NCBI GenBank assembly: GCA_040771865.1 | Contig: JAXGZF010000003.1 | Span: forward strand, 248,001 to 312,000 | Length of the DNA: 64,000 bases | Direction: 5' to 3' | Source of the DNA: Desulfobacterales bacterium | GTDB lineage: Bacteria > Desulfobacterota > Desulfobacteria > Desulfobacterales > UBA2245 | Shown here: positions 24,001 through 27,000 of the stretch, in pieces | How the letters are laid out: each line of letters starts with the position of its first letter | Numbering within the stretch: the stretch's first letter is position 1 | Program-made: the position numbers

Positions 24001-27000
24001 TCTTTCACGCACGGCAAGATTTGAGACCTCGATTGTCCATTTTGCCGACATTCTCGTGCGAGCCAGGGGAATCGGGTTTGCCGGTGACAAAATGATGCCG
24101 TTCTTGGACGACAAGGCCTTTGAGATGCTCAGACTTTCGAAATACGAGATCCAGCTGGTTCTTGAAGAACTCGAGGAGGGCCTTGATGCATGAAGTACGG
24201 CACGCCATGGCCGCTGCACTTCTTGATTCCGCTTTTGAGTGAAATCAGTTCAGAACCGTGCGGATCACCTCGGCGATACGGCTGCAACCGGTTTCGGCCA
24301 GCTCCGCGCTGTGCGCTTCGACCATGACTCGGCAGAGATTTTCCGTTCCCGAATATCGCACCAGTACGCGACCGTTTTCCCCCAGCCCGGTTTCAACCTC
24401 CCGAATGACGGCCGCAATCCGGGGTTCGGAAAAAATTTCGGGTTTTCTGCTGACCGGGACATTGATCAGCTTCTGCGGATAGACATCCATCAGTCGGGAA
24501 AGCGCCGAAAGGGGGCTGCCCGACCTGAGCATTGCGGCGATCAGCTGCATGCCGGCCAGAATACCGTCGCCGGTGCTGTGATGCTCCAGAAAGACGATGT
24601 GCCCGGATTCTTCTCCGCCGATAACGGCCCCCAGCCTTTGCATGTCTTCCAGCACACGCCTGTCTCCAACCCCGGAGGCATGATGCCGCAATCCGTGTTT
24701 TCTGCAGGCCAGCCTAAGACCCAGGTTGCTCATCACGGTGGTGACCAGACAGTTTTTTTGAAGCCTTCCCAGATTTTTGAGCATGATGGCGCAGATCAGC
24801 AGAATCTGGTCGCCGCTCAGCCGATTTCCGGTTTCATCCACCGCGATCAGGCGGTCCGCGTCGCCGTCAAAAGCAAGCCCCAGATCAGCTCCGCACCTTA
24901 GGGTGAGACCCTGAAGACCCGCTGTATGCTGGGAACCGCACTGATCGTTGATGTTGAATCCGTCGGGATGGTTGTGAATCACCTCCACCTGAGCGCCGAA
25001 CCTCGTGAATGCTTCGGGCGCCAGAAGGCTGGCCGCTCCGTTCGAGGTGTCCATGGCGATTTTCATTCCCCGCATGGTGAGATTTTCAGGCCAGACGGAG
25101 CCTAAAAAATCCAGGTATTTCCGGTCGGCGTTTTCCAGGGGGCGTATGCGTCCGATGTTTTCAGACGGCGCCAGAAATTCGGAAAAACCCTGTTTTTGAA
25201 CCAGCGCCTCGATATTCTCTTCCTCGGCATCGGTCAACTTGAAGCCCTGGCCGGAAAATACCTTGATGCCATTATCCGGATACGGGTTGTGAGAGGCCGA
25301 AACCACGATGCCGGCATCGGCGCCGGCGGCACGGGTTGTATATGCGATCGCCGGGGTGGGCAGCATGCCGGTTAGAAGCGCGTCTGCCCCCATGGAGGCG
25401 ATTCCGGCGGCAAGCGCGCTTTCCAGCATATCCGAGGAGATCCGCGGATCTTTGCCGATCAGAATGCGACAGCGCCCAGAATGAAAAAAAAGGCGGGCGA
25501 CGGCCCGGCCAACGGCCATGGCCGTATCCGCATCCATGGGATAGCGGTTGGCCTTTCCCCGAATTCCGTCGGTACCGAAAAGTTTAGTCATCAGCGGGCT
25601 CCATCATGGTTTTTCCATTTTTGAAAAAGGTTCAGTTCCGGCAGAGTGGCGGACGCCCTGCGGCAGTAATTCCATACCACCGCGTCCAGCCAGCGGGTTC
25701 CGTGAAAGATCGCGTCGGAACAAAGCCCCTGAATGGAGCGGATATAATCGGTATCCTTTTTTTGAAGGCAATCCTGTACGGCATTCATGAATCGATTTCG
25801 ATCGATTTCTCCGGCGGCTTCATCCGCCGGCAGCTCCATGGCCCGGCTCAGCGTTTGTATGTTTTCACAGAACCGGATTCGGAAGTCGGTTTCGGACAGT
25901 GAGGCTGTTGAAGCTGTTTTTGAGATATTGTGCGCCATGGCCTGAAGACGCTTGATCCGCTCGGTTCCGGCTGCTTTCAGGATTCCCAGAGCGCCCTGAA
26001 AAATCTCTTCTCCGAATTCGCGGGATTTGAAAAACGGCCGTCGGACACATTGATACCATTGCTCCAGAGCCTGCAGGTTGGCGGCGTAATAAATGTTGTT
26101 TTCAAGAATCCGCAGCATTCCGGCGTATCGACCGGGCTTATGATCCAGAACGAGGTTTTTCAGGGATTTTCCGGAAATCAGCTTGTTGGATTCGGGGATG
26201 TCGTTGCGTAGAACACTGCCGGCTGCCGTAACATTGCCGAAGCCGACCCGCACCGGTCCCACCAGTCCGCCCTGGCCTCCAAGGAAGATTGGCGGCTGGT
26301 TGAGCATGACCCCGCGGGGCACATCTCCGATCAGGCTGGCGGTTGTTTTGTCGCCCTCCGGCGTGAAATTGAAATGAATAAAGGAGCTTCCGACCTCGCT
26401 GTGATTTTTGGGGCCCGTGCCTCCGGCCATCAGGCAGTCACAGAAGTTGATCAGGCTGCCCAGGGTAACGAAAGGAAACAGAATGGTCTGTTTCAGTCCG
26501 ACGCAATGAGCGGCGCTGGCATATTCCTCGATCAGGCAGCCTTCCCTGACATGAGCGCCCATTGCCAGGGATGCGCCCATCAGAAAAACTGACTGCCGGA
26601 AATATCCGCTTTTGAGCGCAACCGCCGATCCGATCCGACAGTTGTCGACCGTTGCCACGCCTTCCTCTCCCAGCCGGACATGGGAGGACACGATCGTGTC
26701 TTTACCGTAAATCCGGCATCCCGGGTAAATCGTGACATTGTTTTCGGATATGCGATCGATGTCCACCTCCGGCCCGATGTCGACGGAAAGTGGATTGAGA
26801 ATTCGGACCCCCTTTTTGATCAGCTGAATGATTTTATTCCGGCAGGCAAGTTCCATGTTCGGCTCCTGAAATACATGTCTTGGGAAGCACTATATTCACT
26901 GTATTTTTGAGAAATTGTCAATGCCGGAATTCCGGGCGGGCAGCCTGATGGAAAAACCATCTAACTGGATTTTGTATGATCTTTGTGATAAAGATGACTG

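What a model noticed while it worked through the whole genome (the two positions that open the first line are those of the whole stretch)
25591..26856. GlmU is split into two stand-alone genes; the acetyltransferase half has gained a 200-aa helical domain
There is no bifunctional glmU: the uridyltransferase half (g00294, C3:314316-315059) stays after atpC, and the left-handed beta-helix acetyltransferase half (g00261, unannotated) with a new ~200-aa C-terminal region lies between glmM and glmS. The split is order-wide and co-occurs with the propeptide-type giant GlmS.
Evidence so far: No full-length GlmU over cut-off in 26 of 26 genomes; matches stop near model position 240. g00261 residues 8-225 match GlmU C-terminal halves; orthologues in 21 of 25 relatives, 18 of 23 loci next to glmM, invariant H-S-E-V-G aligned to the GlmU catalytic His. 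Present in the two outside families with propeptide GlmS, absent from the relative with normal GlmS and from two with leaderless giant GlmS. No paper found.
(Added by a program. Inside this text positions count along the whole contig: contig position 248,001 is position 1 of the stretch shown here. "Call 12" and the like, gene names such as g00115 and contig names such as C1 are that model's own, and its searches are not shown. The text may have been shortened before it was handed on; [...] marks where a part breaks off. The agent that wrote the report below was given it as the finding of a first reader that could run no searches.)

Follow-up and report, generated by a model that had tools for sequence, protein, structure and literature searches.

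The report
Stand-alone replacement for GlmU's acetyltransferase
This gene most likely encodes a separate, remodelled enzyme that does the acetyl-adding step of cell-wall sugar synthesis normally done by the back half of the enzyme GlmU, and bacteria that carry it have repeatedly let that half of their own GlmU decay.

Summary
The 421-aa gene is real: a GlmU-like beta-helix (profile E 7e-13 to PDB GlmU; structural Z 22.5) plus a ~175-aa helical domain with no PDB or Pfam match. The genome's own GlmU stops at residue 247. But this is domain displacement, not a simple split. The family is mobile with its own glmM (77 of 80 loci). Outside the order it coexists with full GlmU in 4 of 34 carriers and with GlmU cut at ~330 in 13. 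In an actinomycete class, GlmU is cut or decayed in 13 of 15 carriers and 0 of 56 non-carriers. In 41 of 46 long homologues it is fused onto a truncated GlmU. Two first-reader claims fail: 21 of 34 outside carriers have only ordinary GlmS, and HSEVG aligns to Asn377, not the catalytic His, which is Ser134. His and Ser appear slid one beta-helix rung up (H117, S157; inferred). Best reading: stand-alone GlcN-1-P acetyltransferase, untested. Split GlmU as such is in print; I found no paper on this family. This scan saw the family before on other DNA.

The parts
25591..26856 (-). Gene for the 421-aa GlmU-related acyltransferase (P0001). Its partner, the 247-aa uridyltransferase-only GlmU, lies outside the window at contig C3:314316-315059 (+), after atpC
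   Evidence: at least 7,999 clusters at 90% identity; AlphaFold pLDDT 94.9; partner:
26149..26841 (-). Residues 6-236: short helix plus left-handed beta-helix, homologous to the GlmU acetyltransferase domain; keeps R104, K122, N163, K170 (= GlmU R333, K351, N386, K392)
   Evidence: 18 of 18 PDB profile hits are GlmU; VIA Z 22.5, rmsd 3.3, 210 aligned to 4aa7; conservation
26455..26457 (-). Ser134, at the position of GlmU's catalytic His363
   Evidence: 308 of 308 aligned homologues have Ser; 9 of 9 bifunctional GlmU have His at the same offset from the conserved Lys
26506..26508 (-). His117, one coil above Ser134 (GlmU Asn346); candidate general base
   Evidence: His in 292 of 304; coil spacing from DSSP; role inferred
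26389..26403 (-). HSEVG motif (152-156) at the end of a 6-residue inserted loop; E154 = GlmU Asn377; second candidate catalytic pair
   Evidence: H 303 of 311, E 310 of 311; alignment
25603..26127 (-). Residues 244-418: helical C-terminal domain with conserved W267, Y268, R272, E299, R300, W389, L390
   Evidence: folded alone pLDDT 92.4; no Foldseek hit at E 0.001, best VIA Z 7.5 to generic bundles; ESM Atlas lead to DUF6819, score 0.85
24245..25591 (-). glmM, coupled by a TGATG overlap; belongs to the mobile clade that travels with the family
   Evidence: TIGR01455 541 bits, cut-off 447.55; tree
27230..30982 (+). Giant GlmS-like gene, divergent neighbour; not an obligate partner

Best explanation
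The protein is a stand-alone glucosamine-1-phosphate N-acetyltransferase of an undescribed family derived from the GlmU C-terminal domain. Pathway here: giant GlmS makes GlcN-6-P, the coupled GlmM makes GlcN-1-P, this enzyme (probably a trimer) acetylates it with acetyl-CoA, and the 247-aa GlmU remnant makes UDP-GlcNAc. The phosphate pocket is kept (R104, K122, N163, K170). The catalytic corner is rebuilt: GlmU's N346/H363/A380/S405 read H117/S134/S157/G194, so His and Ser each sit one rung higher; H152-E154 is an alternative base. The helical domain probably replaces GlmU's CoA-binding tail. History: the gene spread with its own glmM (often nagB), made the native acetyltransferase domain redundant, and that domain was then eroded, deleted or replaced by fusion. 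Shown: homology, residue pattern, gene linkage, distribution, fusions, decay. Inferred: activity, substrate, donor, trimer, roles of H117/S157 and of the helical domain.
For: Fold and profile point to GlmU before any other beta-helix. No other GlmU C-half in a 98%-complete genome. Class of G473 (record labelled Thermoleophilia): 15 of 71 genomes carry the family; GlmU is cut or internally deleted in 13 of those 15 and in 0 of the other 56 (55 full span, 1 contig-edge C-half). Desulfobacterota outside the order: of 34 carriers 22 have a cut GlmU (13 at model 323-357, 9 at 236-250, one of these at a contig edge), 8 no match, 4 full; real stops read for 9 of the 13. 41 of 46 long homologues are GlmU 1-~335 fused to a whole family member, none with the native HL[ST]Y motif; single ORFs in two metagenome contigs. 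GlmU cut at 331 is known to keep only uridyltransferase activity (PMC4358021, passages). glmM follows directly in 77 of 80 loci, nagB-like next in 49 of those 77. G225 has the family, a cut GlmU and a GlmM of the ordinary clade; G039 has full GlmU, no family match and a cassette-type GlmM motif: both fit GlcN-1-P as substrate. A beta-helix N-acetyltransferase can work without its His (ApmA H135A, PMC7885111, passages).
Against: No activity data. His363, Tyr366, Asn377 and Ser405 equivalents are all changed (S134, N137, E154, G194). The 'same corner' claim rests on repeat register and DSSP, not on inspected coordinates, and alignments disagree around 127-153. GlmU looks intact in 9 carriers read (G188, G196, G217, L066, G280, G282, G474, G494, G518), so the family is not always a replacement. 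GlmU is also cut without the family in G040, G042, G043, G045 and G025, so other routes exist. The actinomycete copies form one clade, so 13 of 15 is not 13 independent events. Eight outside carriers lack a typical GlmU N-half.
Confidence: 0.76

Rival explanations
1. It acetylates GlcN-6-P, and the coupled GlmM then acts on GlcNAc-6-P (eukaryote-like order). This also bypasses GlmU's acetyltransferase and explains its decay.
For: The family travels with its own GlmM clade (40 rows, SH-aLRT 100, quick tree). The adjacent GlmM is the only full GlmM in 4 of 4 carriers with full GlmU and 15 of 15 actinomycete carriers, one of which also has a partial second match. That GlmM reads GE[E/D]SGH in 64 of 69 scored rows against EQSGH in 10 of 13 non-carriers, and mostly SGTQ against SGTE. 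The rebuilt catalytic corner could fit another amine position. nagB, which handles GlcN-6-P, is in the cassette.
Against: Phosphate ligands sit exactly where GlmU binds a 1-phosphate. G225 pairs the family with an ordinary-clade GlmM; G039 pairs a cassette-type motif with full GlmU. The motif is mixed inside the cassette clade (several EQSGH). The cassette GlmMs tested pass the TIGR01455 cut-off.
Confidence: 0.11
2. Same acceptor but another donor or chemistry: acetyl-ACP or acetyl phosphate bound by the helical domain, or a ping-pong mechanism through Cys139 or a metal held by H117/C139/H152/E154/H161.
For: C139 in 304 of 308, H152 303 of 311, H161 301 of 311. GlmU's tail residues R440/W449 (roles recalled) are not conserved. 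LpxA and LpxD, next in the fold search, pair a beta-helix with helices and use acyl-ACP (donor recalled). The nearest other family by ESM features is DUF4954/DUF6819, which earlier AI notes place beside nagB and ACP genes (unchecked).
Against: No ACP or acetate-activating gene among the neighbour clusters of 80 loci (ORFs under 120 aa were not listed, so an ACP could be missed). The A-A-G-S/T-R-D stretch matches GlmU's CoA-side coil. The DUF4954 link is below the Atlas threshold and not backed by Pfam.
Confidence: 0.08
3. It is a non-catalytic, GlcN-phosphate-binding regulator or scaffold of GlmM/GlmS, and acetylation is done by an unrelated enzyme.
For: Catalytic His position is Ser. Tight coupling and one fusion to GlmM (P0273). 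GlmU is cut in some genomes without the family.
Against: 13 of 15 against 0 of 56; fusion exactly in place of the lost catalytic coils; a dense set of invariant polar residues around the site.
Confidence: 0.05

Closest known systems
C-terminal acetyltransferase domain of bifunctional GlmU (TIGR01173; PDB 2oi6, 4aa7, 1hm0, 5vmk)
   Same: Beta-helix fold and length (TM to 4aa7 0.81, Z 22.5), preceding helix, R333/K351/D369/N386/K392 equivalents, pathway context
   Different: Separate gene; ~22% identity; His363 is Ser, Tyr366 Asn, Asn377 Glu, Ala380 Ser, Ser405 Gly, Asn346 His; two inserted loops; ~175-aa helical domain in place of the tail
Truncated and separately encoded GlmU halves reported with NagU (bioRxiv 10.64898/2026.06.23.733835, section 15) and monofunctional GlmU of Bacteroidetes (PMC4358021)
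   Same: No full-length GlmU; uridyltransferase and acetyltransferase on separate genes, or one missing
   Different: Those reports rest on similarity searches for GlmU halves; the preprint's main text has no 'Desulf' or Deltaproteobacteria word; no helical domain, rebuilt site, cassette or fusion is described in what I saw. Its Extended Data Fig. 9 and supplements, and Fig. S4 of PMC4358021, were not seen
LpxA / LpxD and sugar N-acetyltransferases QdtC, ApmA
   Same: Beta-helix with C-terminal helices (LpxA/LpxD); N-acetylation possible without a catalytic His (ApmA)
   Different: Lower fold scores (Z 14-18.7); the genome has separate 273- and 366-aa beta-helix ORFs of LpxA/LpxD size (names inferred); helical part not matched
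DUF4954 / DUF6819 proteins (PF16314, PF20683)
   Same: Nearest other family by ESM features for the whole protein (0.87-0.88) and for the helical domain alone (0.82-0.85); beta-helix plus further domain
   Different: Lead only; no Pfam match listed for 84 or 78 members; no member could be fetched for direct comparison

Membership tests
Bifunctional GlmU (TIGR01173) | Uridyltransferase and acetyltransferase domains in one chain, score over 366.85 | tested here: not met
   52.9 bits, residues 9-233 only; N-half is a separate gene
GlmU acetyltransferase domain | Left-handed beta-helix of GlmU type | tested here: met
GlmU acetyltransferase domain | GlcN-1-P phosphate ligands R333, K351, N386, K392 (roles recalled) | tested here: met
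   R104 300 of 300, K122 303 of 305, N163 309 of 310, K170 309 of 309
GlmU acetyltransferase domain | Catalytic His363 with Tyr366 and Asn377 (His role recalled; Asn377/Tyr366 named in PMC3146400) | tested here: not met
   S134, N137, E154; His found one coil up (H117)
GlmU acetyltransferase domain | CoA-binding tail R440/W449 and Ser405 (roles recalled) | tested here: not met
   G194 invariant; region 228-245 variable
GlmU acetyltransferase domain | Homotrimer with active sites between subunits (PMC10087520) | not tested
   only a monomer was modelled
GlmU acetyltransferase domain | Acetyl-CoA + GlcN-1-P gives GlcNAc-1-P | not testable with these tools
   needs assay
UDP-GlcNAc pyrophosphorylase (the public auto-label) | Nucleotidyltransferase domain | tested here: not met
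   no NTP-transferase match; model is beta-helix plus helices
DUF4954/DUF6819 | Match to PF16314 / PF20683 or shared fold | tested here: inconclusive
   Atlas 0.82-0.88; not among listed Pfam families (25 of 28 and 25 of 44 shown); PF20683 over cut-off in 0 of 251 genomes that include 43 carriers
LpxA/LpxD | Score over family cut-off, lipid A context | tested here: not met
   19 bits against 207; neighbours are glmM/nagB

The most novel reading that the evidence does not exclude
This family and DUF4954/DUF6819 form one overlooked superfamily of hexosamine-phosphate acyltransferases with a helical donor-binding domain and a catalytic His/Ser pair slid one rung along the beta-helix. Together with its own GlmM and NagB it makes a mobile, GlmU-independent route to GlcNAc-1-P, possibly in eukaryote-like order (GlcN-6-P acetylated first) or with a non-CoA donor, that has displaced the textbook step in several phyla.
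Probability: 0.2. Interest if true: 0.78.

Novelty: new variant of a known kind. Interest (0 to 1): 0.57.

Why it matters
GlmU is taken as the near-universal bacterial source of GlcNAc-1-P. This gives a named candidate for the missing acetyltransferase in a whole order of sulfate-reducer-type bacteria and in scattered lineages of other phyla, for a family of at least 7,999 clusters now labelled as the wrong enzyme. It offers a caught-in-the-act series of domain displacement (intact, decayed, internally deleted, cut at ~330, cut at ~240, re-fused) and a testable case of catalytic residues moving one rung along a repeat fold.

Tried and rejected
Fusion to GlmM in G178 and G277 (879/880-aa 'open frames'): rejected, an in-frame stop separates the genes. 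L088 1056-aa ORF and P0272 MarR extension: long upstream open frames, not treated as fusions. P0160 and P0247: look frameshifted. NagU/UAP1-type enzyme as the partner where the GlmU N-half is missing: PF01704 found in 0 of the 8 such outside carriers, so not the explanation. Fetching a DUF4954 protein: nothing usable (G278's group is probably not Bacteroidota despite its record title), 85 or 93. Helical domain: no Foldseek match at E 0.001, best VIA Z 7.5, no recurrent Pfam family; this does not show a new fold. The TyeA hint (E 0.01, 2 of 78 members) was dismissed. Promoter and terminator scan: at chance level. Complex prediction with GlmM was not available, so binding and trimer were not examined. 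Trees are quick searches with SH-aLRT only and no test of a root; 7 of 85 GlmM loci gave no usable row. Paper searches that found no description of this family; the library lacks most subscription papers, and the GlmU mechanism paper PMC6011181 is not held.

Full report
1. The observation. The window holds a 421-aa ORF at 25591-26856 on the minus strand whose stop overlaps the start of glmM by one base; the giant glmS ORF starts 373 bases away on the other strand. NCBIfam's ten best hits are GlmU models, all on residues within 6-235 and far under cut-off. In the genome (98.3% complete) TIGR01173 finds a 247-aa N-half after atpC (model 2-240) and this gene (model 231-441). The N-half ends in a stop at the start of the linker helix, with no beta-helix remnant behind it; the other beta-helix ORFs have LpxA/LpxD-like sizes or are short. 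A profile of 84 homologues hits 18 PDB sequences, all GlmU, best E 7e-13. The AlphaFold model (pLDDT 94.9) is a beta-helix followed by seven helices; the 30 best Foldseek entries listed are GlmU and VIA gives Z 22.5, rmsd 3.3 over 210 residues to the isolated E. coli acetyltransferase domain.

2. Distribution. In the order, 0 of 35 relatives have full GlmU, 26 have an N-half ending near model 240, 9 gave no match. The family is in 25 of 30, plus a fragment at a contig end in G029, plus 5 of 5 further genomes; it was not found in G008, G009 (60% complete), G022 and G025. In a draw of 250 phylum genomes scores fall in two groups: 42 relatives under E 1e-90, and weak hits mostly in 450-500-aa frames, read as ordinary GlmU. 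Of the 34 carriers outside the order, GlmU is full in 4, cut at model 323-357 in 13, cut at 236-250 in 9 (G178 at a contig edge), and unmatched at E 1e-35 in 8. I read the ends of 9 of the 13: all are true stops before the catalytic coils. Giant GlmS is present in 13 of these 34; 21 have only the 610-aa type. So the tie to giant GlmS is most simply shared ancestry within the order.

3. Displacement, not fission. The family starts at about GlmU residue 240, yet the GlmUs cut near 330 keep their own residues 240-330, so that stretch exists twice. The family is mobile: the 80 best genome loci include records labelled Actinomycetota, Chloroflexota, Nitrospirota, Bacillota and an Asgard bin. glmM follows directly in 77 of 80 (the other 3 end within 700 bases), a nagB-like gene follows glmM in 49 of 77, and giant glmS is in 19 of 80. 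As an independent test I searched 71 genomes of the class of G473 (record labelled Thermoleophilia): 15 carry the family; 13 of these have GlmU cut at 238-243, cut at 328-332 or internally deleted, against 0 of the 56 others. The native glmU sits between ispE-like and prs-like genes in 3 of the 4 such loci read (names from sequence, recalled), a different locus from the atp operon. G484 and G508 have lost just the catalytic coils; G472 and G157 show decayed site residues; nine other carriers look intact. Caveats: two of the 71 were known carriers, and these copies form one clade. In quick trees the window's own gene and its glmM group with the mobile clade, not with most order members, in line with 55-57% identity to the best outside genomes and mostly 44-54% inside the order. 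So even here the pair seems to be a later replacement.

4. Fusions. Of 46 homologues longer than 527 aa, 41 are GlmU residues 1 to ~335 joined to a family member, helical domain included; none keeps the native HL[ST]Y motif. One is named Rokuibacteriota by NCBI; two metagenome contigs hold the fusion as a single ORF. P0312/P0313 form a separate branch and may be a second fusion event. One cluster is fused to GlmM, one to a galactokinase. E. coli GlmU cut at 331 keeps only uridyltransferase activity (PMC4358021, passages).

5. Active site. With numbering from the 456-aa chain 3fww, and roles of GlmU residues recalled except Asn377/Tyr366 (PMC3146400, one passage): anchored on the conserved Lys position, 9 bifunctional GlmUs from my loci read R(-18), N(-5), H(+12), Y(+15), D(+18); P0001 reads R104, H117, S134, N137, D140, and after a 6-residue loop E154, S157, N163 for N377, A380, N386. 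HSEVG is therefore at Asn377. Among up to 311 aligned homologues R104, S134, K170 and G194 are invariant and H117 is in 292 of 304. N346, H363, A380 and S405 occupy the same place in successive coils (matching the DSSP spacing); the family has H, S, S, G there. I infer that His and Ser each moved one rung. This is from register only, and searches align this stretch differently, though also without a His. H152-E154 or base-free catalysis (ApmA, PMC7885111, passages) are alternatives.

6. Helical domain. Residues 238-421 fold alone and match nothing specific in the PDB or Pfam. It belongs to the family as a whole, shorter in G027. Its invariant Arg and aromatic residues follow directly on the place of GlmU's tail, so a role in donor binding is my inference. 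The ESM Atlas puts DUF4954/DUF6819 nearest for both the domain and the whole protein, at 0.82-0.88, a lead only; I could not fetch a member.

7. Against. No activity is shown. GlmU is also cut without this family in G040, G042, G043 and G045 (4 of 11 genomes picked for having no match at all) and G025; G042 also gave no glmM at E 1e-100. The cassette GlmM has altered substrate loops, which keeps GlcN-6-P open as substrate, although G225 and G039 argue against it.

8. Literature. bioRxiv 10.64898/2026.06.23.733835 (abstract, sections 15 and 16, word search) reports separately encoded GlmU halves and lone halves in other bacteria; its extended data and supplements were not seen and could list relatives. 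PMC4358021 (passages) reports monofunctional GlmU in 30 of 45 Bacteroidetes genera. PMC10087520 and PMC2675579 (passages) give the trimer requirement. PMC6953169 (one passage) only lists a DUF4954 gene. Ten searches (listings) found no description of this family. Earlier notes of this scan had reached a similar reading on other genomes, including the replaced His; my reading was stated before I saw them.

9. Verdict. Real, conserved and most likely an enzyme of a core pathway. A new variant of a known kind: it works like the GlmU acetyltransferase domain but fails its catalytic-residue and architecture tests. Interest 0.57.

Noticed in passing
window 24245-26856; L010, L011: The window's acetyltransferase-glmM pair (and the copies of G001 and G017) groups with the mobile cross-phylum clade, while the window's giant GlmS is of the order type: probable xenologous replacement.
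   Followed up: partly
L058:4144-5061; L328-L330: An unannotated ~305-aa gene rides in the cassette (25 of 80 loci; after nagB in 3 of 3 actinomycete loci); no Pfam, NCBIfam or PDB match; a GSDID stretch looks like a nucleotidyltransferase motif (recalled).
   Followed up: partly
L123-L126: Carriers lacking a typical GlmU N-half hold a divergent 268-290-aa uridyltransferase-like protein that ends at about the same point (4 of 5 searched); a possible second monofunctional family.
   Followed up: partly
G040, G042, G043, G045, G025 (L135, L142, L145, L146): GlmU lacks its catalytic C-half and no family member was found; two are single-contig genomes. A further acetyltransferase, or dependence on outside GlcNAc, is implied.
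   Followed up: partly
G000:C6:27089-28315 (L332): The genome encodes a eukaryote-type UDPGP-family protein (PF01704, E 6.7e-124), as do 19 of 35 order relatives; substrate not determined.
   Followed up: no
L084: Two family copies (48% and 55% to P0001) flank a giant glmS that is in two frames.
   Followed up: no
P0271, P0273, P0175: Single clusters fuse the family to galactokinase, to GlmM, or to an extra beta-helix.
   Followed up: partly
L105 and 9 other loci; L113; L043: NrpR-like regulator in 10 of 80 loci, CofD/YvcK-like gene in 6 to 12 and a RapZ-like gene (name recalled) in 7 lie beside the cassette.
   Followed up: no
window 23083-24193: A small gene with a weak DUF3391 hint and an HDOD gene converge on the 3' end of glmM; the HDOD gene was seen beside the family in 1 of 80 loci.
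   Followed up: no
L109:1126-5859: A giant GlmS ORF of 1577 aa, about 330 aa longer than the rest; start not checked.
   Followed up: no
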